Below, one piece after another: positions 1 through 59,643 of a DNA stretch of 59,643 nt. The position numbers and the translations under genes were made by a program. Source of the stretch: Bacteroidota bacterium (GTDB lineage Bacteria > Bacteroidota > Bacteroidia > JAADEI01); contig JALWYU010000048.1 of assembly GCA_026992635.1 (NCBI GenBank), positions 1 through 59,643 of the forward strand, read 5' to 3'. Each line of letters begins with the position of its first letter. The stretch's first letter is position 1. A model generated the notes under the pieces. It searched no databases. It saw nothing but the letters and a program-made list of their open reading frames with translations, and was not told where the DNA came from.

Positions 1-42
1 CCCCCAATTCTCTCAAATTTTTGGCTTTGATAAGCTGGTGGG

Positions 43-1017
43 ATGGTGGTTTGTCGTGAGGAGTTGTGGAGATTGGTTCCGTATTACAGGGTGTTGGGAG
101 GTGGTTGTCGGTTGTCGGATCTGGTAGGGATGTTTCCGGGTTTGGTGACGGGTCGGTGGACTTCGGGTGAGTGGCTTCGTTTTTTGCAGTGGCGGGATGC
201 GTATGTGTTGGGCAGGCCGGTGTATGTGGGAGGTGTGTTGATGCCGTTTGGGGATATTGCGCTGGAGGTTCCGGTGGGTGTGTTTTTTCCGCGAGTGGAG
301 ACGGAGTGGCTGGCGTTGATGTTGTGCTGGTTGGGTGAGGAGGTGGGTGTTCCGCGGTTGCTGGTGGATGGGTGTACGGGGAGTGGTGCGCTGGCATTGC
401 AGTTTCAGTACCGGTTTCGGGGTGTGGAGGTTGTGGGTGTGGATTGGTCGGAGGAGGCGGTACGTTGTGCCTGTCGGAATGCGGTACGTTTGGGATTGGG
501 TGCGGTGTTTGTTCGGGATAGGTGTCCGGGAGGTCGTAGTAGTTGGGGCTGGGTGCGCAAGAGGGGTGTTTGGTGGTTGGTGGCGAATCCCCCGTATGTT
601 TTGCCGGATGAGGTGGGTGTGGTGGGGGTTACGGTTCGCTGGTATGATCCGGTGGATGCCTGGCGTTTATCAGGTGGATTGGATCTGGTGTATAATCTGG
701 TGGAGTGGGCGGTGGTGAATGGTGCGGGTTTGTTGCTGGTGGAGTTGAGTGGTCGGATTGCAAGGCGTGTGTGGCGGGATTGTACAGGTTGGTGGGGGGG
801 AAAGGTTGGTGAGTATGTGTTTTGCATTGTGCCGGACATGCGGAATATTCCGCGGTATTTGTTGGGTATCAATGTGGGCGTGTATTGTGAGGAGGAGGTT
901 TTGGATGCGTTGTCCCGGTTTTTTAGTGGTCGGGGTGTGGTTTTTGCGAACCTTTTTGGAGAAAAAGAAGTTGTTCAGGAAAGGGAGGGAGAGGGCTGTG
1001 TGAGGCAGGGGTCGTAA
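43..1017 (+). CDS. prmC: HemK/PrmC-family N5-glutamine methyltransferase (divergent)
   Basis: FFPRVETE (cf. LIPRPETE), SAM-binding DGCTGSG and catalytic NPPY motifs; very V/G/R/W-rich. Confidence 0.75.
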   Translation: MVVCREELWRLVPYYRVLGGGCRLSDLVGMFPGLVTGRWTSGEWLRFLQWRDAYVLGRPVYVGGVLMPFGDIALEVPVGVFFPRVETEWLALMLCWLGEEVGVPRLLVDGCTGSGALALQFQYRFRGVEVVGVDWSEEAVRCACRNAVRLGLGAVFVRDRCPGGRSSWGWVRKRGVWWLVANPPYVLPDEVGVVGVTVRWYDPVDAWRLSGGLDLVYNLVEWAVVNGAGLLLVELSGRIARRVWRDCTGWWGGKVGEYVFCIVPDMRNIPRYLLGINVGVYCEEEVLDALSRFFSGRGVVFANLFGEKEVVQEREGEGCVRQGS

Positions 1018-1030
1018 AACGTGTAAGGTC

Positions 1031-1714
1031 ATGGAAGGTTTTTCGGGGAATCATCGGGAGAAACGGAGTGCGTCTTTTGTGAAGGAGGGAGATCGGGAGC
1101 AGGGAGCGGTTCGGGATAGTCAGGAGATTACGGAGCGTTTTGAGTACAATACGTTGCGTTCGCCGTTGCGTTATCCGCATGTGGGTCGGATATTTTTTCG
1201 GTTGGCGGAGGAAGCGGTGCGTGTAGGGGAGGATGATGAGGCACGTGCGAAGTTGTGTGCGGCGTTGATTGAGTCGGTGTTGCGTGCGCAGAATCGTCAG
1301 GGTGGTCGGATTCCGGAGGAGCGTTATCAGGAGATGTGGTCGGTGTTATTGAGTGGGCTGGGTGGGGCGTTGCGTGTTGCGCCGTGGGCGTTACCGATTC
1401 GGGGTGAGGAGAGTCAGGACGGGGAGACACCGGTGCGTATGGCGTATCCGCAGAGTGAGGAGGGCGTGGATCATGGTTTGGGGAGGATTGTGTATCGGTG
1501 GATTCGTGCGATTGAGGAGGTGGAGGATGCGGGTCGTCGTACGATTTATGCGACGGCGCTGGCGAATTTTTTGAAGTTTCAGATTCGGAAGTGGCAGGGG
1601 CGTCCCGCGAATGAGGAGACCTTAGAGGAGTACATGCGGATGTTGTCTCGGGGCACGTTGAAGCCGGATTTTCGGATACGGATTCCGAAGAGTGCTGATC
1701 GGAATCAGCGTTAG
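1031..1714 (+). CDS. DUF4290-domain protein
   Basis: EYNTLRSPLRYPHVGR resembles the DUF4290 N-terminal YNT..L..PEYGR motif; sits directly upstream of murA as in other Bacteroidota. Confidence 0.65.
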   Translation: MEGFSGNHREKRSASFVKEGDREQGAVRDSQEITERFEYNTLRSPLRYPHVGRIFFRLAEEAVRVGEDDEARAKLCAALIESVLRAQNRQGGRIPEERYQEMWSVLLSGLGGALRVAPWALPIRGEESQDGETPVRMAYPQSEEGVDHGLGRIVYRWIRAIEEVEDAGRRTIYATALANFLKFQIRKWQGRPANEETLEEYMRMLSRGTLKPDFRIRIPKSADRNQR

Positions 1715-1722
1715 GTGTGTAG

Positions 1723-3051
1723 ATGGGTACGGCGTTCGTAGTGGAAGGGGGTTATCGGTTGTCGGGGGAGATTGTTCCGCAGGGTGCGAAGAATGAGGCA
1801 TTGCAGGTTTTGTGTGGGAGTTTGTTGACGGATCGTCCTGTGGTGATTCGTCGTGTTCCGCGGATTCGGGATGTGGAGTATTTGCTGGAGGCGATGAAGG
1901 CGTTGGGTGTAGAGGTTTCGTATTTGGCACGGGATGTGGTTCGGGTTCATGCGCGGGAGGTTCATTGGGAGGGGATGCGTACGGATGCGTTTCGTCGTGC
2001 GATTCGTCGGATTCGTGGTGGCGTGATGCTTGTGGGTCCGGTTCTGGTTCGTACGGGTTGTGCGGTGTTGCCGCAGCCTGGGGGTGATCGGATTGGTCGT
2101 CGTCGTTTGGATACGCATTTGGAGGGATTGCGTCAGTTGGGTGTGGATGTGGAGTATCGGTCTGGAGAGCGGGAGTACTGGTTTCGTGTGGGTCGGTGGG
2201 CGTCGGGTGGTGTACGTGTTTGGTTTTGGGAGCCGTCGGTGACGGGCACGGCGAATGTTTTGATGGCGGCGACGGCGTGTTCGTTTCCGGTGGAGTTGTA
2301 TCATTGTGCTTGTGAGCCGTATGTTCAGCAGTTGTGTCGGTTTCTTCGGCGGTTGGGGTATCGGATAGAGGGGGTAGGGACGAATCGTTTACGGTTGGTG
2401 GGGTATGACCCGCCGTCGGGTTCGGATCCATTTTCGCATGATTTGCAGCCAGATATGATAGAGATTGGGAGTTTTATTGGTTTGGCGGCGATGACGCAGT
2501 CGGATATTCGGATTCGGGATGCGATGCCCGATCAGATTCCCAATATTTTGCGGGTGTTTGCGCGGTTGGGGATTGATTTTCGGATAGAGGGGGATACGAT
2601 TCATGTGCCGGCTCAGGAGGTATATGAGGTTCAGCCGTTTGCCGATGGGTCAATTTTGACGGTGTATGATGCGCCGTGGCCGGGATTTCCTGCGGATTTA
2701 TTGAGTGTGGTGCTGGTTACGGCGGTTCAGGCACGGGGTACAGTGTTGATTCATCAGAAGATGTTTGAGAGCCGGTTGTTTTTTGTGGATTCGCTGATAG
2801 ATATGGGTGCGCAGATTATTTTGTGCGATCCGCATCGTGCGACGGTAGTGGGGCTTGCGCGTCGTGTTGCGTTGCGCCCTGTGGAGATGTCGTCGCCGGA
2901 TATTCGTGCTGGGATTGCGATGTTGATTGCAGCCTTATCGGCGTCGGGCACGAGTATAATTCGGAATGCGCATCAGATTGATCGGGGGTATGAAGCGATA
3001 GATGTTCGGCTTCGTCGGCTGGGTGCACGGATTGAGCGGATAGAGGAATGA
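1723..3051 (+). CDS. murA: UDP-N-acetylglucosamine 1-carboxyvinyltransferase
   Basis: GAKNEAL, PGGDRIGRR, SVTGTAN, PWPGFPAD, FESR, SPDIRAG, IDRGYE motifs. Confidence 0.97.
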   Translation: MGTAFVVEGGYRLSGEIVPQGAKNEALQVLCGSLLTDRPVVIRRVPRIRDVEYLLEAMKALGVEVSYLARDVVRVHAREVHWEGMRTDAFRRAIRRIRGGVMLVGPVLVRTGCAVLPQPGGDRIGRRRLDTHLEGLRQLGVDVEYRSGEREYWFRVGRWASGGVRVWFWEPSVTGTANVLMAATACSFPVELYHCACEPYVQQLCRFLRRLGYRIEGVGTNRLRLVGYDPPSGSDPFSHDLQPDMIEIGSFIGLAAMTQSDIRIRDAMPDQIPNILRVFARLGIDFRIEGDTIHVPAQEVYEVQPFADGSILTVYDAPWPGFPADLLSVVLVTAVQARGTVLIHQKMFESRLFFVDSLIDMGAQIILCDPHRATVVGLARRVALRPVEMSSPDIRAGIAMLIAALSASGTSIIRNAHQIDRGYEAIDVRLRRLGARIERIEE

Positions 3052-4820
3052 CGGTGTTGCAGACGGTTACTTTGGTGATTACGCTGGGTTTGATTTTGAC
3101 GCTGGCAGTTACGCGGTTTAAGCCGTTTCATGTGTTTCTGGTGGGTGTGTTGAGTTTATTGTTTACGGGGGTGTTGACGATTGAGGAGGCGACGATGGGT
3201 TTTTCCAATCGTGGTGTGATTACGTTGTTTTTGGTTTTGGCGTTTTCCCAGGTATTTCGTGGCAGTGCTTTGTTGCATCGGTTGTTGGGTCGGTTGTTTC
3301 ATGAAGGGGTTTCGTATGCGGGGTTTGTTGTTCGGTCGGGTATGGTGTTGGCGCCGATCTCAGCGGTGATGAGCAATACGTTGTTGATGGCGGTTACGCT
3401 TCCGTACATTGTGGAGTGGTCGCGCAGGAAGGGTTTGGTCCCTTCGCGGGTGTTGTTACCGTTGGCGTCGTTGATCATTGCGGGGGGGACGTTGACGTTG
3501 ATTGGGACGTCGTCGCATTTGGTGATTGCGGGTTTTGCCCGGACGCAGGATCCACCGGTGGAAATTCCGGTGTTTGCATTGTTGCCTGTGGGTGTTGTGG
3601 TTTTGGTGGTTGTGGTGGTGTACTGGTTGGTAATGGGCTGGCGGTTATTGCCGGTTCGCCGTGATCCGCGAGAGACTGTAGAGGGCAATTTTCGGCAGTA
3701 TACGGCGGAGGCACGGGTTTTACCGGATTCGCCTTTAGTAGGTCAGACGGTTGCGCGTGCGCGTCTTCGGCATTTGCGACGGCTTTTTCTGGTGGAGATT
3801 TTACGGGGTGATGAGCGGATTTATCCGGTGAAGCCGGCGGATGTGATTCAGGCGGGGGATATTCTGGTGTTTGTGGGTACGCCAGAGGCGATCTTGGAGC
3901 TGACACAGGTTCATCCGGGTTTGGAGATTGGTGGGTTGTTTGCGCGTCGTCGGTTTCCGAGTATGGATGTGGTGGAGGCGGTGATTCCCTTGAATTCTAC
4001 GTTAGCGCGTCGTCGGTTGCGGGATACGCAATTTCGTGCCCGGTTTGATGCGGCGGTGATTGCCATTCATCGGCATGGTGAGCCGTTGCGTGGAGGTCTG
4101 GGGAACATTGTGTTGCAGTCTGGGGATTTGTTGTTGTTGTTGACGGGTCCGGATTTTTGGGCGCGAGTTCGGAATGAGACGGACTTGTATGTGATTGGGA
4201 AGGTGGGTCAGCTGTATCGGTTGAAGGGTGTGCAGGACTGGTTTTTGTATGGGGTGTTTTTGGTGGCGATAGGGTTGTCGGCTTTGGGTGTGGTGTCGTT
4301 GCCTGTGGCGTTGGCAGGGGCGCTGGCGTTGCTAACGGTTTTTCGGATCCTTTCTCTGAATGATTTGCGTACGGGGATTGATTGGCCACTGGTTTTGGTG
4401 ACGGCGTTGTCGATTCCAATTGGGTATGCGTTTGTGAAGGTAGGGTTAGTGGATCGGTGGGTGTCGTGGTTGGCGAATACGGTTTCGTTGACGCCGTGGT
4501 GGTGGCTTGTGATTGTGTATGGTTTAGGTATGGTCTTGACGGAGTTGACGTTCAATGTTGGGGCGGCGGCGCTGATGGCGCCCATAGCGATTCAGGTTGC
4601 CCGGGTTTGCGGGTCGGCACCGGAGCCGTTTCTTTTGTCGGCGATGTTTTCGGTTGCGTTAAGTTTTTTGACGCCGTATGGGTATCAGGTGAATTTGATG
4701 GTGATGGGTCCGGGTGGTTACCGGTTTGTAGATTATTTGCGGGCGGGCTTTCCGCTGACTGTGATTTTCCTTTTTTTGATTCCCACTTTGCTTTACGTTC
4801 TGTATTGGAAAGGGGCGTAG
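3048..4820 (+). CDS. SLC13/DASS-family permease with TrkA-C (RCK-C) domains, probable sulfate transporter
   Basis: [11 protein letters not shown], two central TrkA-C repeats, [22 protein letters not shown]; first gene of the sulfate-activation cluster. Confidence 0.88.
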
Positions 4821-4822
4821 AG

Positions 4823-5479
4823 ATGGCGGGCATGAGTCGGGAAAAACGGATTGTCATTCCGCATCGGCATCGCGTTCAGAAGAAGGATCGGATTGCGCGG
4901 TATGGTTATCGTCCTGCGATTTTGTGGTTTACGGGCTTGTCGGGTTCGGGCAAGTCCACGTTGGCGTCTCGTGTTGAGGAGGTGCTTTTTTATCAGTATG
5001 GTTGCCATACGTACATTCTGGATGGGGATAATATTCGGACGGGTTTGAATCGGGATTTGGGGTTTTCGCCGGAGGATCGTGAGGAGAACATTCGGCGGGT
5101 GGGGGAGGTGGCACGTCTTTTTGTGGATGCGGGTTTGATTGTGTTGACTGCGTTTATTTCTCCGTATCGTCGTGATCGGGATCGGGTACGTGGTTTGGTT
5201 GAGCCGGGTGAGTTTATAGAGATTTACGTGCATTGTCCGCTGGAGGTGTGTGAGCAGCGTGATGTGAAGGGTTTGTACAAGCGTGCGCGGGCTGGTGAGA
5301 TTCCCAATTTTACGGGGATTTCGGATCCGTATGAGGAGCCGTTAAATCCGGAGATTGTGGTTCACACGCACTTAGAAGATGTGGAGACGTGTACAGCTCG
5401 GATTATTCGTTATCTGGAAGAGCATGGGTATATTTCGTTGTCGGGGAAAGTGGCTTCATCTGAAAGTGGGGATTCATGA
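4823..5479 (+). CDS. cysC: adenylyl-sulfate (APS) kinase
   Basis: [13 protein letters not shown]-loop, [25 protein letters not shown]; start moved to ATG 4823 after the permease stop. Confidence 0.96.
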
Positions 5480-6627
5480 ATACGCCGCATGGAGGTGAGC
5501 TGGTACAGCGGTGGGTACGTTCGCCGTCGTCGGAGGAGCTGGAGCGGTTTCGTCGGGATTTTCGGACAGTGGCTGTGTTGCATGAGCGGTTTGTGATTGA
5601 TGCGCTGGCGATTGCTCAGGGGATTTACAGTCCGTTGCGTGGTTTTTTGGGCAAGGCGGATGTAGAGCGCGTCATAGAGGAGTTTCGTTTAGCGGATGGG
5701 ACGCCTTGGGCGATTCCGATTGTCTTGCCGGTTTTGGAGCCGGAGCTGGTTCCGGAGGGTCGCGTATTGTTGACGTGGTTAGAGCAGCCGTTTGCGTGGA
5801 TGGAGGTGCGTGAGGTGTATCGTATACCTATGAAGCGGTTTGTGCAGGGTGTATTTGGCACGGATGATGTGCGTCATCCGGGTGTGGATTTCTGGACGGG
5901 TTTGACGGATTGCTGGTTTGTTGCGGGTGAGGTCAGTGTGTTTCGTTCGCCGTTGCCTTTGCCGGTGGATGCCCGGTATTTGTTGAGTCCTGTGCAGGTT
6001 CGTGAGGCGATACGTCGTCGTGGTTGGAAGCGTATTGTGGCGTTTCAGACGAGAAATCCCATACATCGTGCGCATGAATATTTGATCAAGTGTGCGCTGG
6101 AGATGATGGATGGGGTATTGATTCATCCGCTGGTGGGTGCGACGAAGCAGGATGACATTCCGGCGTCTGTCCGAATGCAGTGTTATGAGGTGTTGTTGAA
6201 GAATTATTTTCCGGAGTCCACAATGTTGCTCAGTGCGCTGTATGCGAATATGCATTATGCGGGTCCGCGTGAAGCGATTCATCACATGATTATGCGGAAG
6301 AATTTTGGGTGCACGCATATGATTATAGGTCGGGATCATGCGGGTGTGGGGAATTATTATGGACCGTATGATGCGCAGGAGCTGGCGCGTGCGTGGAGTT
6401 CGGAGTTGGGGATTGAGCCCATTTGCTTTGAGCATGCGTTTTATTGTCGGCGTTGTGGGAGTACGGCGACGCGCAAGACGTGTCCGCATCCCGAATCAGA
6501 TCATTTGCATTTAAGTGGGACGGAGTTACGTCGTCGGTTGCGTTCTGGCGAGCCGATTCCTGAGGAGTTTTCGCGAAAAGAGGTGCTTGCCATTTTGCGC
6601 AGCTGGGTTCAAAGTGCGAGTGATTGA
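5476..6627 (+). CDS. sat: sulfate adenylyltransferase (Sat-type ATP sulfurylase)
   Basis: PHGG N-terminus, [28 protein letters not shown]-terminal CxxC..CPH zinc site. Confidence 0.96.
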
Positions 6628-6700
6628 TTTTTGCAGGTTGGGGATTGAAAACTTTTTCCTGGATTGAGTGCAGGGGTGGCATGGAAAAATCCTGTCTGGC

Positions 6701-7603: not shown

Positions 7604-7616
7604 GGTAGTGGGTAGA

Positions 7617-9070: not shown

Positions 9071-9073
9071 AAC

Positions 9074-51475: not shown

Positions 51476-51556
51476 GTGGTGAGGGTTGTTGTTGTTGTTG
51501 TGCCGCCGCCATCCGCCACCCGCCCACCCTTATTTTGTCAAAAATGTGTTTTGTAG

Positions 51557-52633: not shown

Positions 52634-52654
52634 ATGCGTTGTGTAGGTATAGGG

Positions 52655-55564
52655 TTATCGGATGTAGAGGAGGGGGACGTGGAGAGGTGGCAGGTTGGGG
52701 TTGTTGTGGGTGTGGATGGTGATCCAGTAGATGCCGGGTTGGGGTAGCTGGTAGATGGTTTGGGTTCCGGCGGGGAGTGTGGAGGTGGTCTGGTAGAGGG
52801 TTTGTCCTGTGAGGTTGTGGATCTGGATTGAGGTGTTGGGTAGAGGCTGGCTGGTAGTGAGGAGGATTTCTCCGGAGGGGTTGAGGTGGATGGTGAGTAT
52901 CTGGTCTGTAGTGGTGGTTGGGAGGGCGGTGGCGCAGTTTCGGATGGTGATGGTGGCTTGGGCGGTGTCGGTTCCGCAGCCGTTGGCAGCCAGGAGTGTG
53001 ATGGTGTAGGTTCCGGGTTGGGTGTAAGTGATGGTGGTCTGTGGTGAGGAGGCGGTAGAGGGTGATGCTCCGGGCAGTAGCCAGAGGATGCTGTCGGCGT
53101 TTTGTGCGGTAGCGGTGAGGTAGAGGGTGTCGCCGGGGCACAGGGGTGTGTCGCTGGCTTGTATGGTGAAGGATGCGGTGGGTGGCTGGGTGGTGACGGT
53201 TACGGTGACTGTAGCGGTGTTGGAGCATCCGTTGGCGTCGGTTCCGGTGACGGTGTAGGTTGTGGTCTGGTTGGGTGAGGCGATGACCTGTGGTCCGGTT
53301 GTGGTGTTGAGTCCGGTTGCGGGTGCCCAGAAGTAGGATTGTGCGCCGGAGGCGGTGAGTGTAACGGATTGTCCCTGGCAGATGATGGGTGCGGTGGGTG
53401 AGATGGTGATCTGGGGTTTGGGATGGATGGTGATGGCGCCGGGTGCGTAGAGTGTGTCGGAGGCGAGGCATTCGCTATGGACGATGAGCGTCACGTCGTA
53501 GGTTCCAGGTGTGCTATAGGCGACCTGGACTTGCTGGAGTGTGTCGTAGGGGGGTGATCCGCCGGGCAGGTACCATTCGTAGGCGGAGGCGCCCTGTGAG
53601 GGAGAGGCGTCCAGGAGGATGGGTTCGCCCACGCATGCGGAGACGGGGTTGGGTGTGAATTGTGCCTGGGGCAGGGTGTCGGTGAGCACTAACCAGATGT
53701 AGTGTGAGACCTGGAGATTCCAAGAGTTGGGGTCGTCGTAGGCATACCAGGATCCGTCCTGCCAGATTTCCCAGGCGGTAGCGGGAATGGAGTTGCCATC
53801 GCTGTTGGTAACGATGGCGAGGGTATCGCCGGGTGCATAGGAGAATTCCACGCCGGCGAAGATCCCGTGGTTGGTGGGCAGTTGGATGGGTGTGTCTAAG
53901 GGTACGAGGAGCAGCCATCCGCTATCTACGGCTTGCTGGATTTGTGCGTAGGTGATGATTTCGGTTTGGAGGACGTTTCCGAAGGTATCCCAGATGCGGA
54001 CGTAGACGGGGTTGCCGGATCCGCCATCTTTTCCAACGCCAAACCAGAAGATGACGCCGGTCAGATAGGGGAAGCCGCTGTAGAGTGAAGGTGCGAAGTA
54101 TTCCATTTTGCCGATGTCTGAGAAGTCGTTATGTCCGGAGACATATCCGCCTGGGTATACATAGATTACGGGCACGTCGGTGGAGTCCACGTTGCCGACG
54201 ACTACGCAGGATGGACGGGGCAATACGTGGATGTAGTTGGTTTTGGTAAGTGTATCGCACCCGTTGTTGTTGCAGGCGATGAGCGTGACGTCGTAGGTGC
54301 CGGGGTTATTGTAGACGATATTCTGTGGGTTTTGGACGGAGGATGTGGCGGGTGTTCCGCCGGGGAAGGACCAGTTCCAGCTGGTGGCGGCGGGCAGGGA
54401 TTGGTCGTAGAAGTTGACGCTTTGCCCGGCGTAGATAGTGGTGGGTGTGCCGTAGAAGTCGGCGGTGGGTGGTGCGCCCTGTGGGTTGCATGCGTTGGAG
54501 GAGAGGAGTGGTGTCAGCCAGTTGAGCAGAACGTTTCGCATTCGTGTTTTCTGGCATTGTGTGAACATGTTCATGCAGGCGTCGTTGGTGTAGTCCATAT
54601 AGTTCATGAACATGATGCCGGGCGGAGAGGGTGAGCATGCGTCGGTTTGGGGGAAGGATGGGCATCCGCTGGTGGGTCCGGCTTGGTTGGGTGTATCCTG
54701 GCAGTAGTCTGTACCGTAGCAGGCGGTTCCGTCGTCACCCCAGATGTGTCGCAGGCTGAGGCAGTGTCCGACTTCGTGGGTGAGGGTACGTGATCCGAAA
54801 GGTGGGCAGCTGCCGGTGACGGTGCAGTAATCAATGACGGCGCCGTAGGTTACGTGTGAGGATGTGATCTGGTTGCCAGAGGGGAATTCGGCGTAGCCGA
54901 GCAGTCCGCCGCACAGGTTTCCGATCCAGATATTGAAGTACTGTGTGGGGTCCCAGGCGTCGAGTCCGCCTTGGCTCCAGAATTTGATGTCGTCGTTGGT
55001 GGTGAAGCAGGATATGTTGGGGTTGTATCGTCGTTCAATTCCGTTGGTGGGGTTGCCCTGTGGGTCCACCTGTGCTAAGCAGAACTGGATTTCAATGTCG
55101 GCGGCGATGGGTTTCCAGATGGCGGGTGTGTTGGAAGTGTCGGGGTTTTGTCGGCGGAAATCCAGGTTGAGTGCGTTGATGAGTGCCTGGATTTGTGCGT
55201 TGGTGGGGTTTTGTGCGCTGTTGGCGTAGACGACGTGGACGACGACGGGGATTGTGTAGACCTGTCCCGCCTGGAGCTGGATTTGGGATTGCTGGAGCCA
55301 CTGGAGGAATGCCTGTTCAAATTGTGTACGGAGCTGGTCGTAGGCAGGGTTTTGAGCGCGTCGGAGTGAGTCGTAGTAGTCGGTTGCGCATCGCTGGTAG
55401 GAGGTGGTGTGTGTTCCGCGTGGGGAGATGGTGTGTTTGGGTACGGTTGGCAGGGGTTCGTTGGGGAGCTGTGCGAGGAGTGATGGGTAGAGGGTGCAGG
55501 AGGTGATCAGGGTGGCGATTGCCAGCGTGGTGCGCAGTGTTTTTTTGGTGTGAGTTGTGGTCAT
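52655..55564 (-). CDS. M43 (pappalysin-like) zinc metalloprotease with PKD domains and probable T9SS type A CTD
   Basis: RCATD Cys-switch, IPVVVHVVY, HEVGHCLSLRHIWGD, MNYMDY, PKD repeats (WSFPGGTP..YNNPGTYDVTL), C-terminal NLTGQ..PGIYW. Confidence 0.9.
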   Translation of the reverse strand: MTTTHTKKTLRTTLAIATLITSCTLYPSLLAQLPNEPLPTVPKHTISPRGTHTTSYQRCATDYYDSLRRAQNPAYDQLRTQFEQAFLQWLQQSQIQLQAGQVYTIPVVVHVVYANSAQNPTNAQIQALINALNLDFRRQNPDTSNTPAIWKPIAADIEIQFCLAQVDPQGNPTNGIERRYNPNISCFTTNDDIKFWSQGGLDAWDPTQYFNIWIGNLCGGLLGYAEFPSGNQITSSHVTYGAVIDYCTVTGSCPPFGSRTLTHEVGHCLSLRHIWGDDGTACYGTDYCQDTPNQAGPTSGCPSFPQTDACSPSPPGIMFMNYMDYTNDACMNMFTQCQKTRMRNVLLNWLTPLLSSNACNPQGAPPTADFYGTPTTIYAGQSVNFYDQSLPAATSWNWSFPGGTPATSSVQNPQNIVYNNPGTYDVTLIACNNNGCDTLTKTNYIHVLPRPSCVVVGNVDSTDVPVIYVYPGGYVSGHNDFSDIGKMEYFAPSLYSGFPYLTGVIFWFGVGKDGGSGNPVYVRIWDTFGNVLQTEIITYAQIQQAVDSGWLLLVPLDTPIQLPTNHGIFAGVEFSYAPGDTLAIVTNSDGNSIPATAWEIWQDGSWYAYDDPNSWNLQVSHYIWLVLTDTLPQAQFTPNPVSACVGEPILLDASPSQGASAYEWYLPGGSPPYDTLQQVQVAYSTPGTYDVTLIVHSECLASDTLYAPGAITIHPKPQITISPTAPIICQGQSVTLTASGAQSYFWAPATGLNTTTGPQVIASPNQTTTYTVTGTDANGCSNTATVTVTVTTQPPTASFTIQASDTPLCPGDTLYLTATAQNADSILWLLPGASPSTASSPQTTITYTQPGTYTITLLAANGCGTDTAQATITIRNCATALPTTTTDQILTIHLNPSGEILLTTSQPLPNTSIQIHNLTGQTLYQTTSTLPAGTQTIYQLPQPGIYWITIHTHNNPNLPPLHVPLLYIR

Positions 55565-55654
55565 GGGTGAGGTGCGTTTTGGAGGTGGTTGCCCTTTTAC
55601 TGGGTAAGTTAAGGTTCTGCGGGAAAACTTCGTGGGCAAAATTTTTGTGGTGGG

Positions 55655-56710
55655 TTAGCGTATACCCAGTTCCCGGAGTTTTTTGTGGTATTGTCTTGCG
55701 TACTGGAGGTGTTCCTGGTAGGTTCGTGCGAAGTTGTGGTAGCCGGATCCGTCGGGACGTGCGACGAAGAAGAGGTAGTCGTGTTGTTCGGCGTTGAGGA
55801 CGGCGTCAATCGTGATGGGAGAGGGTGTGCAGATGGGTCCGGGTGGTAAGCCTTTTCGGATGTAGGTGTTGAAGGGTGAGGGGATACGAGTCATGGCGTA
55901 GGTGATGCGTCGTATAGAGAAGTCGCCGATGGCGTATTTGACGGTGGGGTCGGCTTGTAGTGGCATGTTTTTTCGGAGTCGGTTGAGGTAGACGCCGGCG
56001 ATTCGTGGTTTTTCGTCGTCGCGGTAGGTTTCTTCCTCTACGATAGAGGCTAAGATGATGACCTGCATGGGTGTAAGTCCGAGTGCTTCTGCTTTTTTTC
56101 GTCGTTCTTCGTTCCAGAATTGCTGGAATTCTTTCCACATGCGGTGGACGAGTGCCTTAGGTGAGGTGGTCCAGTAGAATTCGTAGGTGTTGGGGATGAA
56201 GATGCCGAGTACGGTGTAGGGGTTGAGTCCGAAGGTAGCGAGGAATTCTTCGTCCTGGAAGGTTTCCAGGAACTGGCTGGGAGTGGGTTCTAAGTGTTTG
56301 CCGAAGAACTGAGCCATTTGGTTGAGGGTCCGGAATCGGCGCCATGTGAGTCGGAGGGGGTCTTGTGCGCCACTGCGCAGTTTTCGGATGAGTTCTACGT
56401 AGCTCATGTTGTGGTGGATGGCGTATCTACCTGGGTAGACGTGGTGGTGGTAGTTCATTTGTCTGGCGAGCCATCGGAAGTAGGTGCAGTCGGAGACGTA
56501 TTTGGCTTGGCAGAGGGTTTGGATGACCTGGTTGAAGGTGGCGCCCGTAGGGATGTAGATGTAGGTAGTGCCGTTTTCGGTTTGGACGTGTACGGCGGGT
56601 CCAAAGGTTTTGTAGAGGAAGTGGTAGGCGATGAAGGCGGGTGGGATGAGGAGAAGTGTGAGGAGGATGAGCCAACGTCGTCTGAGTTTTTTCTGTACGC
56701 GTCGTTTCAT
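55655..56710 (-). CDS. mltG: endolytic transglycosylase MltG (YceG)
   Basis: N-terminal TM helix, PNTYEF, LASIVEEE, YLNRL..LQADPT, SPFNTY..GLPPGPI. Confidence 0.95.
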   Translation of the reverse strand: MKRRVQKKLRRRWLILLTLLLIPPAFIAYHFLYKTFGPAVHVQTENGTTYIYIPTGATFNQVIQTLCQAKYVSDCTYFRWLARQMNYHHHVYPGRYAIHHNMSYVELIRKLRSGAQDPLRLTWRRFRTLNQMAQFFGKHLEPTPSQFLETFQDEEFLATFGLNPYTVLGIFIPNTYEFYWTTSPKALVHRMWKEFQQFWNEERRKKAEALGLTPMQVIILASIVEEETYRDDEKPRIAGVYLNRLRKNMPLQADPTVKYAIGDFSIRRITYAMTRIPSPFNTYIRKGLPPGPICTPSPITIDAVLNAEQHDYLFFVARPDGSGYHNFARTYQEHLQYARQYHKKLRELGIR

Positions 56711-56736
56711 GGTGTGGGTGTTTTGGGTTTGGTGTT

Positions 56737-57393
56737 TCAGGGGGTGGGGCTGGTGGTTTGCCAGGGTTTGGGGTGTGTAAAGAGTTGCGCGCATTCCTGG
56801 ATGTAGGTGAGGATCTGGAGTTTACCGAGTTGGGTTCGGCTGGAGGTCAAGAAGATTTTTGGTGGTTTTTCCCAGTAGTGGGAGAGGAAGGTTTTCCAGG
56901 TTTGGAGTCGGCGGTGTAGTTCTTGCTGGTTGGGAATGTCGCATTTGGTGAGGACGAGTGCGAAGGGTATCTGGTGTTTGCCCAGGTGGAGGATTGTTCG
57001 TTTGTCCTGGGTGGTTGGTTCTATTCTGCTGTCGACAAGCAGGAAGAACATCATCAGTGTGGGTCGCTGAATGAGGTATTGCCAGATGAGGTGTTGCCAG
57101 TGCTTACGGAGGGTTTTGGGTACGCGTGCGTAGCCGTAGCCGGGCAGGTCGGCAAGGAGCCAATGCTGGTGGTGGCGTGTTGTGATTCGGTAAAGGTGGA
57201 TACCGCGTGTACATCCTGGTTTTTTGGAGGTACGTGCGATGGATTGTCCGGTGAGCATGTTGATGAGTGAGGATTTTCCGACGTTGGACCGTCCGCCGAA
57301 GGCGAATTCGGGCAGGGGGATCTGGGGCAGGTCGTGAAAATTCTGGAATGTGCCGAGGAATTCTGTGTGGGTGATGAGGTGGGAGGTAGGCAT
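56737..57393 (-). CDS. engB: ribosome biogenesis GTPase YihA/YsxC
   Basis: GRSNVGKSSLIN, PGCT, DLPGYGY, TKCD. Confidence 0.93.
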   Translation of the reverse strand: MPTSHLITHTEFLGTFQNFHDLPQIPLPEFAFGGRSNVGKSSLINMLTGQSIARTSKKPGCTRGIHLYRITTRHHQHWLLADLPGYGYARVPKTLRKHWQHLIWQYLIQRPTLMMFFLLVDSRIEPTTQDKRTILHLGKHQIPFALVLTKCDIPNQQELHRRLQTWKTFLSHYWEKPPKIFLTSSRTQLGKLQILTYIQECAQLFTHPKPWQTTSPTP

Positions 57394-57495
57394 TCGCGGG
57401 GGATTTCCTACCTTATCTGGTGAAAGTAACGGAGAAGGTTCCCGAAAGGTTTTGGGGGATTGTGGGGGGTGTGAGTCTGCTTAAAGGTTGTTCTG

Positions 57496-59643
57496 ATGGG
57501 TGAGTTGGTGGGGTCTGGTCTGGCGAAGGGAGGCAGGACTGTGCTGGGACATCCGCCGGGTTTATTTGTGTTGTTTTTTGCGGAGATGTGGGAGCGATTT
57601 TCGTTTTATGGGATGCGTGCGCTGTTGATTTTTTATTTGTTGAAGGGGTTTTTTGCGGCGACGGATGAGGTGAGTTATGGGATTTATGGTGCGTATGGTG
57701 CGCTGGTGTATATGACGCCGTACATAGGTGGGTTGCTGGCGGATCGGGTTTTGGGACGTCGTCGTGCGGTGGTGTTGGGTGGGTTGTTGATGGCGGCGGG
57801 TCATTTGCTGATGACGGTTGAACATACGCTGGCGTTGTTTGGTGCGCTGGGTTTGCTGGTGGTGGGCAATGGGTTTTTTAAGCCGAACATTTCCACGATT
57901 GTGAGTGAGTTGTATGAACGGATGGGTTTGGTTCGTCGGAAGGATGCGGGCTTTACGATTTTTTATATGGGGATTAATCTGGGTGCGGCGGCGGCGCCGA
58001 TTGCCTGTGGGTATTTGGGTGAGACGTATGGCTGGCATTATGGGTTTGGATTGGCGACGGTGGGTATGCTTGTGGGTGTTGCGATATTTGTTGCGCCGGT
58101 TCGGTTGACGCAGTTTTTGATTGGGGGTACGGCGTTGTTGCTGGCTGTGGCTTTGCCGTTTTTGCAGGATACGGGTTCGTGGTATCAGGTGGGTTTGCGT
58201 GTGTTTTTGAGTGGGATGCTGGTGGTGTCGGGGGTTGTGGCGTGGGTGGCGTTGTCTCGTGGGGGTTTACCGGTTGGGGCGGGTGCTCCGCCAGTACCTG
58301 AGTTGTTGCGTCGTCGTGTAGTGGGGTTGTTGAGTGTGGAGGGGTTGATTTATGTGCTGTCGGTGGTGGGTGCGATGTTGTTTGGTGTGGCGATATTCTT
58401 TTATGTGCATTTGGGCTGGATTTTGCAGGTGGCGGGTTTGGCGTTTCTGGTGTACATTGTGTGGGAGATGTTTCGTTCGTGCACGCGTGCTGAGCGCTTG
58501 CATATTTTAGCGATGCTGGTTTTGTTCTTTTTCAACATGTTGTTCTGGGCGTTTTTTGAGCAGGCGGGGAGCAGTATTAATAACTGGACGGACAGGAATG
58601 TGGATCGGGTTGTGGAGCGGTATCGTGTTCGCGAGTCGGATGTTGGGAAGACGATGTGGTTTCGTGTGCCGTTGTCGGTGTCGGATACGTTGTTAGGGCG
58701 TTTACCGCTGTTAAGTCAGGAGCAGCTGGGTTATCGGAATGGGGATTCGTTGTTTTGGCAGCAGGTGTTGTATGCGATGCTGGTGGTGGAGACGAAGCGG
58801 AACTGGACGCGTGCGGATCCGGTTGATCTGGATACGGTGGTTGGGTTGTGGCGTCGTCTCAGGGGTTTGGGTTTGGTTACGTTGACGGCGGTTACGTATT
58901 TGCGTGAGGTGGTGAATATGAATTCTGAGGAGTTTATTCGGGCGATGGCGTTTGTGGTGAAGCATTATGGATGGTTTTCGGATCGTTTTGAGCGTTCGTC
59001 GTTTTATGTGGTGCGGTGGCGTGTTTTACCGGATAATGTGGGGATGGGGATTGCGTATGGAGAGATTCCGGCGTCGGAGTTTCAGGCTGTGAATCCGGCG
59101 TACATTTTGTTGCTGGGTCTTTTGTTCAGCTGGCTGTGGACTTGGTTGGGTCGTCGTGGACGGGATCCGTCGGTGCCGGTGAAGTTTTCGCTGGGTTTGT
59201 TGTTGCTGGGTTTGGGTTTCTTAGCGTTTTACTGGGGTGTGCTGGTTCGGGATGGACGGGGTATGGCGCCGGTCTGGTCGTTGTTGCTGGGGTGGTTGTT
59301 GATTACGTGTGGTGAGTTGAGTTTGTCGCCTGTGGGTTTGGCGATGGTTACGCGGTTGGCGCCTCGTCATCTGGTCAGTACGTTGATGGGGGGCTGGTTT
59401 TTAGCCAGTGCCTTTTCGCATTACATTGCGGCGGAGATTGCGCAGTTGACTGGGGTTGGTGAGGGTGGTGAGTCGGTGATTCAGGTGGTACCTCCTCCGT
59501 GGGAAACGGCATTGTTGTATGGGGAGGTGTTCTGGGGGATTGCGTGGTTTGCGCTGGGTGCTTCGGTGTTGTGTTTGTTGCTGTCGCCGGTGTTGAATCG
59601 ATGGATTGCCGCGCGGGATTTGGGTTCTGCCCCCACCGTCCCC
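57496..59643 (+). CDS. POT/PTR-family oligopeptide:H+ symporter (open at window end; absent from the ORF track)
   Basis: Hand-translated: GHPPGLFVLFFAEMWERFSFYGM (ExxERF), GGLLADR, GNGFFKPNI, FYMGINLG, FEQAGS, FQAVNP, GELSLSPVG; no stop before 59643. Confidence 0.93.
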   Translation, partial: MGELVGSGLAKGGRTVLGHPPGLFVLFFAEMWERFSFYGMRALLIFYLLKGFFAATDEVSYGIYGAYGALVYMTPYIGGLLADRVLGRRRAVVLGGLLMAAGHLLMTVEHTLALFGALGLLVVGNGFFKPNISTIVSELYERMGLVRRKDAGFTIFYMGINLGAAAAPIACGYLGETYGWHYGFGLATVGMLVGVAIFVAPVRLTQFLIGGTALLLAVALPFLQDTGSWYQVGLRVFLSGMLVVSGVVAWVALSRGGLPVGAGAPPVPELLRRRVVGLLSVEGLIYVLSVVGAMLFGVAIFFYVHLGWILQVAGLAFLVYIVWEMFRSCTRAERLHILAMLVLFFFNMLFWAFFEQAGSSINNWTDRNVDRVVERYRVRESDVGKTMWFRVPLSVSDTLLGRLPLLSQEQLGYRNGDSLFWQQVLYAMLVVETKRNWTRADPVDLDTVVGLWRRLRGLGLVTLTAVTYLREVVNMNSEEFIRAMAFVVKHYGWFSDRFERSSFYVVRWRVLPDNVGMGIAYGEIPASEFQAVNPAYILLLGLLFSWLWTWLGRRGRDPSVPVKFSLGLLLLGLGFLAFYWGVLVRDGRGMAPVWSLLLGWLLITCGELSLSPVGLAMVTRLAPRHLVSTLMGGWFLASAFSHYIAAEIAQLTGVGEGGESVIQVVPPPWETALLYGEVFWGIAWFALGASVLCLLLSPVLNRWIAARDLGSAPTVP

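What the first reader, a model, noticed from the sequence alone, without database searches (positions are those of the whole stretch)
1..59643. Extreme, position-dependent G+T strand skew independent of gene orientation
Seen: the + strand is very G/T-rich from ~41 kb to the end and from 1 to ~6 kb, fading towards 9 kb. It is near balanced at ~9-28 kb and C-rich at 29-36 kb. Hand counts: 52861-52920 has G28/C5/T19/A8 and lies inside a minus-strand gene, while 34981-35040 has G14/C23. Internal control: the two minus-strand T9SS genes with similar Ig-like repeats (11754-14234 and 52655-55564) use very different synonymous codons, so position rather than transcription drives the bias. Established: C->T and A->G deamination on a strand left single-stranded gives G+T enrichment, as on the mitochondrial H strand. 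Inference: this ~30 kb arc has prolonged ssDNA exposure, for example from strand-displacement or strongly asymmetric replication. A swing this large within tens of kb is not typical of an ordinary chromosome arm.
Basis: partly seen in the sequence, partly recalled or inferred. Interest (0 to 1): 0.8.

Follow-up and report, generated by a model that had tools for sequence, protein, structure and literature searches.

The report
Genome-wide extreme sawtooth strand skew
One DNA strand of this uncultured hydrothermal-vent bacterium is almost pure G and T at freely changeable sites over much of its genome, whichever way the genes point, and the bias climbs slowly and drops suddenly along the chromosome in a way no ordinary bacterial chromosome is known to show.

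Summary
At fourfold-degenerate sites the + strand has GC skew +0.81/+0.82 and AT skew -0.57/-0.64 in 1-8960 and 41301-59643. It is +0.03/-0.02 in 9071-36183. GC4 is 0.65 throughout. Minus-strand genes at 52655-57393 carry the same + strand skew (+0.81) as their plus-strand neighbours.

It is not a special 30-kb arc. The whole 2.13-Mb MAG is skewed: 55% of 2-kb windows exceed |GC skew| 0.2. Sampled stretches of five relatives in the same family and order show ordinary skew.

First and second codon positions follow the local skew linearly, so each locus has held its level for a long time.

The skew rises along 60 of 73 contigs whatever the gene orientation. It falls in sharp steps, several of them at perfect palindromes. 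One is at 8961-9070, the window's left boundary.

Best reading: a replication-type, single-strand transition pressure of unusual strength whose intensity varies by domain. The sawtooth runs opposite to a mitochondrion-style strand-displacement gradient. Earlier notes of this scan had already seen the palindromes and a polarity switch on other pieces of this genome.

The parts
1..8960 (.). Saturated skew domain. The + strand is G+T-rich, and all confirmed genes are on + (DUF4290, MurA/EPSP-type, CitMHS transporter, ATP sulfurylase, inositol monophosphatase family, DapF).
   Evidence: Fourfold sites: GC skew +0.81, AT skew -0.57, G+T 0.86. Genes by Pfam.
8961..9070 (.). Perfect 110-bp palindrome (55-nt arms, no spacer, CTGCAG at the centre) with a G+T-rich 5' arm. 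The skew drops sharply here, and an independent assembly breaks here.
   Evidence: Sequence. Arms 100% complementary (I1). It belongs to a family with 42 sites in this genome. Logan contigs end at 8990 and start at 9041, joined only by a 110-nt unitig of depth 9.7.
9071..36183 (.). Unskewed domain with genes on both strands: ABC-3 fusion protein, T9SS CHU_C protein, sigma factor, Ntox23-domain protein, tRNA-Arg, rpsO, pnp, DHH phosphoesterase, TamB, Kelch protein, and TetR plus a TolC/HlyD/AcrB efflux set.
   Evidence: Fourfold GC skew +0.03, AT skew -0.02, GC4 0.65. Pfam. S15, PNPase, NrnA-like and TamB are single-copy in the genome. Codon positions 1 and 2 show no memory of skew.
36184..42000 (.). 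Ramp in which the skew climbs back to saturation. It holds a 21-nt tandem-repeat ORF, a DNA methylase, a Kelch paralogue, a Tll0287-like protein and the start of glutamine synthetase III.
   Evidence: K-M skew at fourfold sites in 2-kb bins from 36 kb: 0.23, 0.26, 0.53, 0.76. Per-gene third-position values rise 0.08, 0.26, 0.38, 0.50, 0.76.
42001..59643 (.). Second saturated skew domain, running to the contig end. It holds GS III, tRNA-Leu, M23 peptidase, GuaA, HisRS, LPG-synthase TM protein, acyl-CoA dehydrogenase, a sugar dehydratase and a POT transporter.
   Evidence: Fourfold GC skew +0.82 and AT skew -0.64 for 41301-59643. Pfam.
52655..57393 (-). Three minus-strand genes (M43/PKD secreted protein, YceG/MltG, EngB-type GTPase) inside the skewed domain. 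They serve as the internal control for orientation independence.
   Evidence: Fourfold GC skew on the + strand is 0.81, the same as the + genes beside them. Pfam hits E 1e-17 to 4e-86.
11754..14234 (-).
   Evidence: Third-position GC skew on the + strand is +0.06, against +0.70 for 52655-55639. CHU_C E 2e-12.

Best explanation
The window shows a local stretch of a genome-wide, long-standing mutation pressure that acts on one DNA strand. On that strand C is replaced by T and A by G. At freely evolving sites the strand is about 57% G, 27% T, 8% C and 7% A, and the encoded proteins have shifted with it.

The direction is that of the ordinary replication-associated bacterial skew (G+T excess on one strand, independent of transcription). 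The size is roughly ten times the typical value. I read it as damage or copying error on the parental strand that spends time single-stranded behind the fork. That would be the lagging-strand template, or 3' tails left when stalled or broken forks are resected.

The intensity is not uniform. It is set locally, in domains of about 10-30 kb, between zero and saturation, while the sign stays constant over most contigs. It grows slowly along the 5'->3' direction of the G+T-rich strand and is reset in sharp steps. Some resets lie at hairpin-forming perfect palindromes, and others lie where co-directional genes meet head-on genes. In this window, 1-8960 and 42-59.6 kb are saturated domains, 9071-36183 is a null domain, 8961-9070 is a reset point and 36-42 kb is the climb.

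Shown: strand specificity, orientation independence, genome-wide extent, long persistence, the sawtooth chirality, and the link of palindromes with downward steps.

Inferred: that replication is the polar process, that single-strandedness is the cause, and why the intensity varies.
For: 1. Strand-of-DNA, not transcription.
- On the G+T-rich strand, fourfold composition is the same for genes coded on it (G .563, T .288, C .077, A .072; 212 genes) and against it (G .583, T .256, C .092, A .069; 116 genes).
- In the window, - genes have +0.81 and + genes +0.81.
- Genome-wide the orientation term is small. Mean K-M at fourfold sites is 0.505 for 427 co-oriented genes and 0.385 for 480 anti-oriented genes.

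2. Genome-wide, and not seen in the sampled stretches of relatives.
- Most contigs listed carry a clear net skew of one sign or the other.
- 737 of 1382 genes have |fourfold GC skew| above 0.4.
- 55% of 1010 2-kb windows exceed |GC skew| 0.2.
- About 155 kb from five same-family or same-order genomes shows third-position skew mostly below 0.3.

3. Long-standing.
- Codon positions 1 and 2 track the fourfold skew linearly (slopes 0.31 and 0.19, r 0.81 and 0.66).
- Mean residuals lie between -0.002 and +0.031 in every skew class over 764 genes.
- Amino-acid usage differs strongly: Val 10.6 vs 4.6%, Thr 4.0 vs 8.2%.

4. Sign is mostly constant and amplitude is bounded at zero.
- Only 4 sign switches in 1.81 Mb.
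- Skew opposite to the contig's dominant sign in 54 of 907 genes.

5. Sawtooth.
- Slope is positive in 60 of 73 contigs (p 2e-8), and in 59 of 73 on raw sequence.
- It is positive in 52 of 65 contigs after fitting gene orientation.
- The rise continues to 25-40 kb across directons.

6. Resets.
- The step across in-contig palindromes is zero or below at all 11 sites measured, and negative by 0.13 or more at 9 of them.
- 10 of the 11 palindrome junctions scored gene-to-gene are negative.
- Drops below -0.4 occur at 25 of 175 convergent junctions, 3 of 194 divergent ones and 20 of 891 co-directional ones.

7. The unskewed domain is native-looking.
- GC4 is 0.65, like its neighbours.
- It holds single-copy rpsO, pnp and tamB.
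- It has the same nearest relatives as the skewed part.
Against: - No cause was found. UDG (2 copies), endonuclease V, MutS, DnaA, DnaG and RNase HI are all present, as in the unskewed relatives.
- A crude thermophily index is the same for the unskewed sister genus (66 vs 65 C), so heat alone does not explain it.
- The replication direction is unknown. The MAG is in 114 contigs and 82.55% complete.
- Genes show no bias towards the G+T-rich strand (427 co-oriented vs 480 anti-oriented). tRNA genes split 13 to 13, with 9 in low-skew DNA.
- The S10 ribosomal operon lies on the C+A-rich strand over its skewed part, while rpoB lies on the G+T-rich strand.
- Palindromes explain only a mean step of about -0.3. 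Their flanks at contig ends carry either sign.
- Non-coding DNA in the skewed arcs is less skewed (+0.35 to +0.41) than fourfold sites.
- The low-skew side of several sharp steps holds accessory genes (a transposase, T9SS cargo proteins, hypotheticals). About 20% of low-skew genes have low GC4. So some null stretches elsewhere may be foreign DNA.
- The join across the palindrome at 9015 rests on one palindromic unitig, and the two sides differ in contig depth, 25.1 vs 30.1.
Confidence: 0.55

Rival explanations
1. The unskewed 27 kb is foreign DNA, or a xenologous replacement, taken from a donor without skew and not yet ameliorated. On this view the native genome is uniformly skewed.
For: - Skew is bounded at zero relative to each contig's sign.
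- Low-skew genes have slightly lower and more variable GC4, and 19-20% are below 0.55 against 3-4% in high-skew genes.
- Accessory genes (transposase, T9SS cargo proteins, hypotheticals) sit on the low side of several sharp steps.
- The window's domain also holds a toxin-domain gene, an efflux set and T9SS cargo.
- A freshly imported gene would also pass the test on codon positions 1 and 2.
Against: - The domain holds the only rpsO, pnp, nrnA-like and tamB genes of the genome.
- Its GC4 equals that of the skewed flanks (0.65).
- Its best DNA matches are the same family members, at the same 66-71% identity, as for the skewed part.
- Intermediate-skew genes show no lag at codon positions 1 and 2.
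- About half of all genes are below |0.4| (645 of 1382).
- Smooth ramps run through many genes, for example over 28 kb on C108.
- The rise-then-drop chirality is not expected from insertions.
Confidence: 0.1
2. The step at 9 kb is an assembly artefact. The assembler walked through a palindromic repeat and joined two loci that are not neighbours, or belong to different strains.
For: - An independent assembly of the probable source run stops at 8990 and restarts at 9041. The only link is a self-complementary 110-nt unitig of depth 9.7, and the flanking contig depths are 25.1 and 30.1.
- 31 of the 42 palindrome-family sites lie at contig ends, so assemblers usually fail there.
Against: - This palindrome copy has unique outer arms, and only two flanks were seen attached to it (the contig ending at 8990 and the one starting at 9041), so joining them is the simple path.
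- The right-hand transition (36-42 kb) is a ramp with no palindrome of the family or long inverted repeat. Whether independent contigs break there was not examined, because one search covered 1-20000 only.
- Both sides have the same relatives.
- A mis-join would move the boundary but not remove the genome-wide mosaic seen within dozens of contigs.
Confidence: 0.1
3. Mosaic of fork polarity. The chromosome is replicated from many dispersed initiation zones, with termination at fixed sites (palindromes, convergent genes). Local skew then records the fraction of rightward against leftward forks, and null domains are replicated equally in both directions.
For: - Gradual rises and sharp drops are what dispersed initiation with fixed termination would give under the classical sign.
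- The composition of the null domain is close to the strand average of the saturated one, and GC4 is equal.
- The depth step at the palindrome, 30.1 on the right and 25.1 on the left, could be a fork barrier.
Against: - Teeth should swing symmetrically about zero. Instead the sign is nearly constant per contig, with 4 switches in 1.81 Mb, and skew rarely goes below zero.
- A symmetric palindrome would have to block forks from one side only.
- A single dnaA and an ordinary bacterial replication gene set are present.
Confidence: 0.08
4. One reading: mitochondrion-like strand-displacement replication. One parental strand stays single-stranded until a hairpin second-strand origin is exposed.
For:
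- A->G asymmetry at least as strong as C->T.
- Hairpin-forming palindromes lie at skew discontinuities.
Against: - In that model exposure is greatest just past a second-strand origin and declines along the 5'->3' direction of the displaced G+T-rich strand. Here skew rises in that direction and drops at the palindromes.
- Primase, RNase HI and DnaA are present.
- The pattern is genome-wide, not one arc.
Confidence: 0.05
5. The null domain is a recently inverted segment caught half-way while its skew reverses, or a segment that flips often between the two orientations.
For: - Sharp steps coincide with switches of gene orientation, with the polarity an inversion would create.
- The palindromes are at once direct and inverted repeats of each other.
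Against: - Codon positions 1 and 2 carry no memory. The per-gene residuals scatter around zero for the genes with near-zero fourfold skew in 9-36 kb. By my estimate, under assumed relaxation rates, an inversion in transit would leave about -0.12 to -0.16.
- Genome-wide the mean residual is +0.02 in low-skew genes.
- Values opposite to the dominant sign are rare.
- Steps at palindromes go only downward.
- No partner repeat lies at the right boundary.
- Frequent flipping is not excluded by the memory test.
Confidence: 0.05
6. Transcription-associated asymmetry: the non-template strand is exposed in the transcription bubble, and this drives the pattern.
For: - Genes coded on the G+T-rich strand are somewhat more skewed (0.505 vs 0.385).
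- The orientation coefficient is +0.046 and is positive in 49 of 65 contigs.
- The largest drops lie at convergent junctions and the largest rises at divergent junctions.
Against: - About half of all coding sequence has a C+A-rich coding strand.
- The - genes at 52655-57393 have the same + strand skew as + genes.
- The + genes at 14-36 kb have none.
- The ramp continues across directons to 25-40 kb.
Confidence: 0.02

Closest known systems
Replication-associated GC/AT skew of bacterial chromosomes, with strand-specific codon and amino-acid usage (Lawsonia, Chlamydia; Borrelia recalled)
   Same: - G>C and T>A on one strand.
- Strongest at synonymous sites and independent of gene orientation.
- Proteins on the two strands differ in composition.

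Sources seen: abstracts in search listings for PMC2671203 and PMC2089121, and passages of PMC2031905.
   Different: - Size. The SkewDB abstract gives a typical G excess of about 2.5%, and a passage uses 0.046 as an example. Here (G-C)/N is about 0.25 in saturated domains, with fourfold GC skew 0.8.
- Shape. Known chromosomes have two roughly constant arms. Here the amplitude runs from 0 to saturation in 10-30 kb domains with a rise-and-drop chirality, and genes show no preference for the G+T-rich strand.
Vertebrate mitochondrial H-strand asymmetry and its gradient with time spent single-stranded
   Same: - G+T-rich strand with both C->T and A->G asymmetry.
- Amino-acid composition follows the skew.
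- A positional gradient exists, and a hairpin element sits at a discontinuity.

Sources seen: abstracts in search listings only for PMC3269012 and PMC3269014 and PMC2779903. The form of the gradient is recalled.
   Different: The gradient runs the other way along the G+T-rich strand. This is a 2-Mb bacterial chromosome with an ordinary DnaA, DnaG and RNase H set and about 40 hairpin elements, not one.
Skew 'N-domains' of mammalian chromosomes (recalled, no call)
   Same: A sawtooth of strand skew along the chromosome, on a scale set by replication units.
   Different: There the jumps go up at origins and the skew declines between them, swinging through zero. Here the jumps go down, the skew rises between them, and it mostly keeps one sign.
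Strand-coordinated mutation of resected single-stranded DNA at breaks, and palindrome-induced breaks
   Same: The geometry fits. The strand whose 3' end points to the break is the one exposed, so G+T excess should be highest just before the site and fall off backwards. Long palindromes are known break sites.

Sources seen: abstracts in a search listing for PMC3681665 and PMC4245961. The strand-coordination rule is recalled.
   Different: Those are rare, local events, kilobases in extent, seen in experiments. Here the signal would have to dominate the evolution of most of a genome. SbcD_C was not found in this genome or in 4 relatives (0 of 5).
REPIN-like palindromic intergenic repeats (named in earlier notes e1-4892293 and e1-4892294; the paper was not read here)
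   Same: A family of about 100-bp hairpin-forming repeats just behind genes, whose arms change in step.
   Different: Every copy is a perfect palindrome. No Y1 (RAYT) transposase was found in G000 (0 hits; one sub-threshold hit among 5 genomes, in G004). The copies mark downward steps of strand skew.

Membership tests
Replication-associated bacterial strand skew | G>C and T>A together on the same strand, strongest at synonymous sites | tested here: met
   Fourfold GC skew +0.81/+0.82 with AT skew -0.57/-0.64. Whole-sequence GC skew is 0.37-0.52 in the arcs.
Replication-associated bacterial strand skew | Independent of the direction of transcription | tested here: met
   Same fourfold composition on the G+T-rich strand for both gene orientations. 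Window - genes 0.81 and + genes 0.81. The orientation term is only about +/-0.05-0.06.
Replication-associated bacterial strand skew | Two arms of roughly constant skew that switch sign only at origin and terminus | tested here: not met
   Amplitude varies from 0 to 0.9 within contigs. The correlation of |skew| falls from 0.67 for adjacent genes to 0.33 at 5 genes and 0.11 at 10 genes. Slope is positive in 60 of 73 contigs. The sign is mostly constant, with 4 switches in 1.81 Mb. The contigs cannot be ordered.
Replication-associated bacterial strand skew | The G+T-rich strand is the leading strand | not testable with these tools
   The origin is not located (dnaA on C103) and no read-level coverage is available. 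Usual proxies are silent: 427 co-oriented vs 480 anti-oriented genes, and tRNA genes 13 vs 13.
Mitochondrion-type strand-displacement gradient | Skew declines along the 5'->3' direction of the displaced G+T-rich strand towards the next second-strand (hairpin) origin and jumps up past it | tested here: not met
   Skew rises in that direction. It steps down across 9 of 11 in-contig palindromes and is flat at the other 2.
Horizontally acquired island (for 9071-36183) | Atypical composition other than skew, mobility genes, and dispensable gene content | tested here: not met
   GC4 is 0.65, equal to the flanks. No integrase or transposase among the Pfam hits of the window. It holds single-copy rpsO, pnp and tamB. 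It has the same nearest relatives as the flanks.
Chimeric or mis-joined contig | Parts differ in coverage or phylogeny, and the junction is unsupported by reads | tested here: inconclusive
   Phylogeny is the same. Contig depths are 25.1 vs 30.1, and the junction is carried only by a palindromic unitig of depth 9.7. Raw reads were not available.

The most novel reading that the evidence does not exclude
In this vent lineage the replisome routinely leaves one parental strand single-stranded for long and locally variable times. This would happen through progressive uncoupling of lagging-strand synthesis along the fork's path, or through long resection behind forks that stall at hairpin palindromes and head-on genes. 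The chromosome would then carry a saturated, mitochondrion-strength transition bias written as a sawtooth. The skew map would be a fossil record of where forks pause and restart. That mode of chromosome replication and repair dynamics has not been described for any bacterium.
Probability: 0.2. Interest if true: 0.9.

Novelty: new variant of a known kind. Interest (0 to 1): 0.8.

Why it matters
Strand skew is the standard fingerprint of bacterial replication, and it is normally a few per cent. This genome shows it near saturation: about 85% G+T at neutral sites. That is strong enough to double or halve the use of several amino acids, depending only on which strand and domain a gene lies in.

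Because the signal is so strong, its fine structure becomes readable at the scale of single genes. Three features stand out:
- null domains beside saturated ones;
- a universal slow rise with abrupt resets;
- resets at perfect palindromes.

If the structure reflects fork pausing, restart or resection, this organism gives a natural map of those events and a test bed for what causes strand asymmetry.

Practical consequences:
- Composition-based binning, gene finding, codon-usage and horizontal-transfer detectors, and amino-acid-based temperature predictors will misbehave on such genomes. The same proteome gives 31 C or 115 C depending on the strand.
- Phylogenies from its proteins may be biased.

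Tried and rejected
1. Loss of repair or replication genes as the cause. UDG (2 hits), endonuclease V, MutS, DnaG and RNase HI are all present in G000 and in G001-G004, except that G004 lacks an endonuclease V hit.

2. Enzymes that could explain the palindromes. G000 has no hit for Y1_Tnp/RAYT; among the 5 genomes there was one sub-threshold hit, in G004. SbcD_C: 0 of 5. ResT/TelK telomere resolvase: 0 of 5. G000 is 82.55% complete, so these are 'not found', not 'absent'.

3. Other carriers of the palindrome.
- 0 of 400 other genomes of the class.
- 0 hits for the exact core pattern in genome contigs and in metagenome contigs.
- No palindrome with arms of 16 nt or more in about 123 kb fetched from G001-G003. 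One 16-nt example turned up in about 73 kb from the other relatives' loci scanned (G004-G005, G014, G017).

4. A second assembly of the organism.
- The search for related loci with the 863-aa protein in metagenome contigs confirmed no relative.
- With GuaA in genome contigs the best hit was 61% identical.
- A 317-aa GuaA fragment 96% identical exists on a 1.9-kb contig, but its DNA could not be reached.

5. Sequencing runs. Only assembled contigs were served, for 1-20 kb. That gave no read pairs, no polymorphism spectrum, and depth as one figure per contig. Run X2 holds short pieces 90-99% alike, too few to polarise mutations.

6. Heat alone as the cause. The IVYWREL index gives about 66 C for G000 and 65 C for the unskewed sister genus. 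The index itself is distorted by the skew.

7. Enzyme-like sequence context. A/(A+G) on the G+T-rich strand is about 0.10 in nearly all contexts. C is retained mainly before A, which also holds in low-skew genes. There is no TC- or WRC-type signature.

8. A partner repeat for flip-flop inversion at 36-42 kb: none. The independent contig's break near 39,010 lies at a low-complexity GCC/TCC run.

9. Rfam found only the two tRNAs in the window.

10. Literature.
- 'extreme GC skew' with 'bacteria' returned 4 papers, none on such a genome by title or abstract.
- 'strong/high/pronounced GC skew' with thermophilic, Bacteroidota or hydrothermal vent: none of the 12 listed papers holds a skew phrase.
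- These two searches are the basis for saying I found no report. Supplementary files were not consulted.

Full report
**What was checked**

The window is contig C48 of a 2,130,337-base MAG in 114 contigs (82.55% complete, 0.48% contamination). The only run that holds it fully is labelled a hydrothermal vent metagenome.

A 2-kb sliding profile gives these + strand GC skews:
- 0.52 to 0.37 over 1-9 kb;
- 0.19 at 8-10 kb;
- -0.06 to +0.17 over 9-40 kb;
- 0.26 rising to 0.48 from 39 kb to the end.

AT skew runs opposite to GC skew.

**Controlling for coding**

I called ORFs by a greedy longest-ORF rule and checked 44 of them against Pfam. Fourfold-degenerate sites, read on the + strand, give:
- 1-8960: GC skew +0.81, AT skew -0.57;
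- 9071-36183: +0.03 and -0.02;
- 36184-41300: +0.39;
- 41301-59643: +0.82 and -0.64.

GC4 is 0.62-0.66 in all four segments. The skew is therefore far stronger at neutral sites than in bulk sequence. That rules out amino-acid usage as the cause. It also rules out a chemical or sequencing artefact, which would not spare the reading frames.

The three minus-strand genes at 52655-57393 are an M43/PKD protein, YceG and a GTPase, all with strong Pfam hits. Their fourfold GC skew on the + strand is 0.81, identical to the plus-strand genes beside them.

**Extent**

The phenomenon is not local.
- Most contigs listed carry a clear net skew of one sign or the other.
- Of 1382 genes of at least 150 aa, 737 have |fourfold GC skew| above 0.4. 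They split almost evenly between gene orientations: 238 plus-strand and 180 minus-strand genes at positive skew, 153 and 166 at negative skew.
- Of 1010 2-kb windows, 55% exceed |GC skew| 0.2 and 12% exceed 0.4.
- On the G+T-rich strand, fourfold sites are about G .56-.58, T .26-.29, C .08-.09 and A .07, whichever strand is coding.

The nearest genomes held are three of a sister genus and two of the same order. They show ordinary values in about 155 kb that I fetched, and at the homologous loci. The SkewDB abstract gives about 2.5% as the typical G excess. Here (G-C)/N is about 25% in saturated stretches.

**Persistence**

Codon positions 1 and 2 follow the fourfold skew linearly: slopes 0.31 and 0.19, r 0.81 and 0.66, with intercepts near zero. 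Proteins differ strongly by strand:

| Residue | Coding strand G+T-rich | Coding strand C+A-rich |
|---|---|---|
| Val | 10.6% | 4.6% |
| Gly | 9.3% | 5.8% |
| Thr | 4.0% | 8.2% |
| Gln | 3.2% | 6.2% |

Residuals from the line lie between -0.002 and +0.031 in every skew class over 764 genes. In the window, the per-gene residuals of the genes with near-zero fourfold skew in 9-36 kb scatter around zero.

By my estimate, under assumed relaxation rates, a segment caught in mid-reversal after an inversion would lag by roughly 0.1 at these slower positions. A foreign segment half-way through amelioration would lag in the same way. Neither lag is seen. So each locus has kept its level of skew for a long time.

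A freshly imported, still unskewed segment would also pass this test. For the window's null domain that reading fits badly:
- GC4 is identical to the flanks.
- Its rpsO, pnp, nrnA-like and tamB genes are single-copy.
- Its nearest relatives are the same, at the same 66-71% DNA identity, as for the skewed part.

Elsewhere about a fifth of low-skew genes have low GC4. Several sharp steps abut a transposase or secreted-protein genes. Some null patches in the genome are therefore probably foreign.

**Shape of the landscape**

The absolute skew is correlated between neighbouring genes: r is 0.67 for adjacent genes, 0.33 at 5 genes and 0.11 at 10 genes. Domains are therefore some 10-30 kb long. The sign is almost constant within contigs, with three upward and one downward switch in 1.81 Mb. 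Skew opposite to a contig's dominant sign occurs in only 54 of 907 genes. Intensity, not polarity, is what varies.

The variation has a handedness that does not depend on how a contig happens to be written.
- The + strand skew rises along 60 of 73 contigs of at least 12 kb (p 2e-8, about +0.014 per kb).
- The last 4 kb exceeds the first 4 kb in 57 of 73 contigs, by 0.21 on average.
- The same holds on raw sequence, in 59 of 73 contigs.
- It holds after fitting gene orientation, in 52 of 65 contigs.
- It holds for gene pairs in different directons. The difference grows from +0.02 at under 3 kb to +0.17-0.19 at 25-40 kb.

What rises within contigs must fall between them or in sharp steps. Step sizes are negatively skewed. 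Drops below -0.4 occur at 25 of 175 convergent junctions, 3 of 194 divergent ones and 20 of 891 co-directional ones. Rises above +0.4 occur at 15 of 194 divergent junctions. A modest transcription-linked term exists, about +/-0.05. It cannot produce the long ramps.

**The palindrome**

The window's sharp boundary lies exactly on a perfect 110-bp palindrome at 8961-9070. A genome scan finds a family with a shared core and 42 sites. Eleven sites are inside contigs and 31 are at contig ends, so there are fewer than 42 distinct copies.

Most copies sit 0-30 bp after the stop codons of convergent genes, and the 5' arm is always G+T-rich.

Across the 11 in-contig copies the third-position GC skew never steps up. 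It steps down by 0.13 or more at 9 of them, with a mean near -0.3, and the window's -0.63 is the largest. Measured gene to gene, 10 of 11 palindrome junctions are negative. The 6 convergent ones average -0.31, against -0.04 for 169 convergent junctions without a palindrome.

The pattern was found in none of 400 other genomes of the class, and in neither public collection.

Earlier notes of this scan, on other pieces of this genome, had already described the palindrome family (e1-4892293, e1-4892294) and a repeat array at a skew polarity switch (e1-2775011). I re-derived the family independently before reading them. I could not test their sister-species claim.

**Assembly caveat**

An independent assembly of the probable source run gives these pieces:
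- a contig covering 1-8990, depth 25.1;
- a 110-nt unitig that is the palindrome itself, depth 9.7;
- a contig covering 9041 to about 39010, depth 30.1.

A perfect palindrome folds the assembly graph back on itself, so the join of the two flanks is the simple path but is not proven. The depth difference could have several causes: technical, a strain effect, a copy-number step at a fork barrier, or a sign of mis-joining. Only contigs were served, so this stays open.

The genome-wide mosaic and the ramps inside many contigs do not depend on this one join.

**Mechanism**

The composition requires C->T and A->G to be several-fold commoner on one strand than on the other. A/(A+G) is about 0.10 in nearly every sequence context, and there is no deaminase-like motif. 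This is the signature classically ascribed to single-stranded DNA, or to G:T mispairs made on one nascent strand.

The geometry constrains the polar process. The bias grows along the 5'->3' direction of the G+T-rich strand and then resets. The candidates fare as follows:
- A strand-displacement scheme with hairpin second-strand origins predicts the opposite, the vertebrate mitochondrial pattern. It is disfavoured.
- A transferred or rolling-circle strand displaced from a nick also predicts the opposite.
- A mosaic of fork directions predicts teeth that swing through zero, which is not seen.
- Lagging-strand synthesis that falls progressively behind along the fork's path and catches up at pause sites fits.
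- 5'->3' resection backwards from forks stalled or broken at hairpins, or at the entry into head-on genes, also fits. It leaves the strand whose 3' end points to the obstacle single-stranded.

Both fitting schemes keep the classical sign, explain the bound at zero, and explain the one-sidedness at a symmetric palindrome.

Neither is demonstrated:
- No gene loss or gain was found to explain why this lineage differs from its relatives.
- A crude thermophily index is the same in the unskewed sister genus.
- The fork direction cannot be read from gene orientation, which is unbiased.

I put about 0.55 on the general statement: a replication-type, single-strand transition pressure with locally set intensity. 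I put about 0.2 on the specific uncoupling or resection picture.

**Verdict**

Its interpretation is right in kind: a single-strand type bias set by position rather than transcription. It is wrong in scope, because this is a property of the whole genome rather than of one arc. It is probably also wrong in the replication model it suggests.

I found no report of a bacterial genome like this in two literature searches. I file it as an extreme and structurally new variant of replication-associated strand asymmetry.

Noticed in passing
window 8961-9070; also G000 C18:13566-13668, C19:7285-7386 and 12741-12854, C22:16560-16662, C26:8167-8290, C37:7034-7139, C47:17802-17891 and 31628-31723, C49:17213-17302, C97:13762-13867: A family of perfect palindromes with 45-62-nt arms and a shared core. 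Every copy is exactly symmetric although the copies differ from each other. 31 further sites lie at contig ends. No RAYT, SbcD_C or telomere resolvase was found in G000.
   Followed up: partly
window 26851-26885 and 28754-28777: Two isolated stretches that resemble a single arm of the palindrome (74-75% match). They may be decayed copies inside the unskewed domain. The second lies in a low-GC (0.41) intergenic stretch at 28.7-29.0 kb that is itself G-rich.
   Followed up: no
window 36219-36672 (inside the - ORF 36188-36766): A run of 21-nt (7-codon) tandem repeats in an ORF with no Pfam match, exactly where the skew starts to climb.
   Followed up: no
window 15801-16655: An ORF with an Ntox23 polymorphic-toxin domain (E 8e-18). 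It sits next to a sigma factor and just upstream of tRNA-Arg and rpsO.
   Followed up: no
window 9074-11665: An 863-aa protein whose N-terminal part is an ABC-3 type permease. In the sister genus the two halves match separate genes at about 30% identity, so this looks like a lineage-specific fusion.
   Followed up: no
window 27087-28640 and 37648-39384: Two related minus-strand ORFs (156 nt at 71% identity). The first is Kelch-repeat by Pfam; the second had no Pfam hit at the cut-off used. One lies inside the null domain and one in the ramp.
   Followed up: no
G000 C103:9516-33395: dnaA is followed on the same strand by tRNA-Ser and the S10 ribosomal protein region (L2 by Pfam). Across this stretch the skew runs smoothly from -0.65 through 0 to +0.3. 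This is one of the few places where the sign changes.
   Followed up: partly
G000 C108:60495-60564 and 46786-46870: Two long perfect palindromes (arms 34 and 41 nt) that lack the family core. The first sits at a sharp drop of skew, from +0.19 to -0.39.
   Followed up: no
G000 contigs C83, C109, C84, C15, C51, C61, C1: Contigs with lower GC (0.49-0.51) and little skew. They are candidates for foreign or mobile DNA, or for mis-binned sequence.
   Followed up: no
whole proteome of G000: A composition-based growth-temperature index gives 115 C for genes coded on the G+T-rich strand, 31 C for genes coded on the other strand and 61 C for low-skew genes. Such predictors are unusable on this genome.
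   Followed up: yes
window 1-20000 in run X2: A second sample of the same study holds short contigs 90-99% identical to the window at low depth. A related strain therefore co-occurs in the same study.
   Followed up: no
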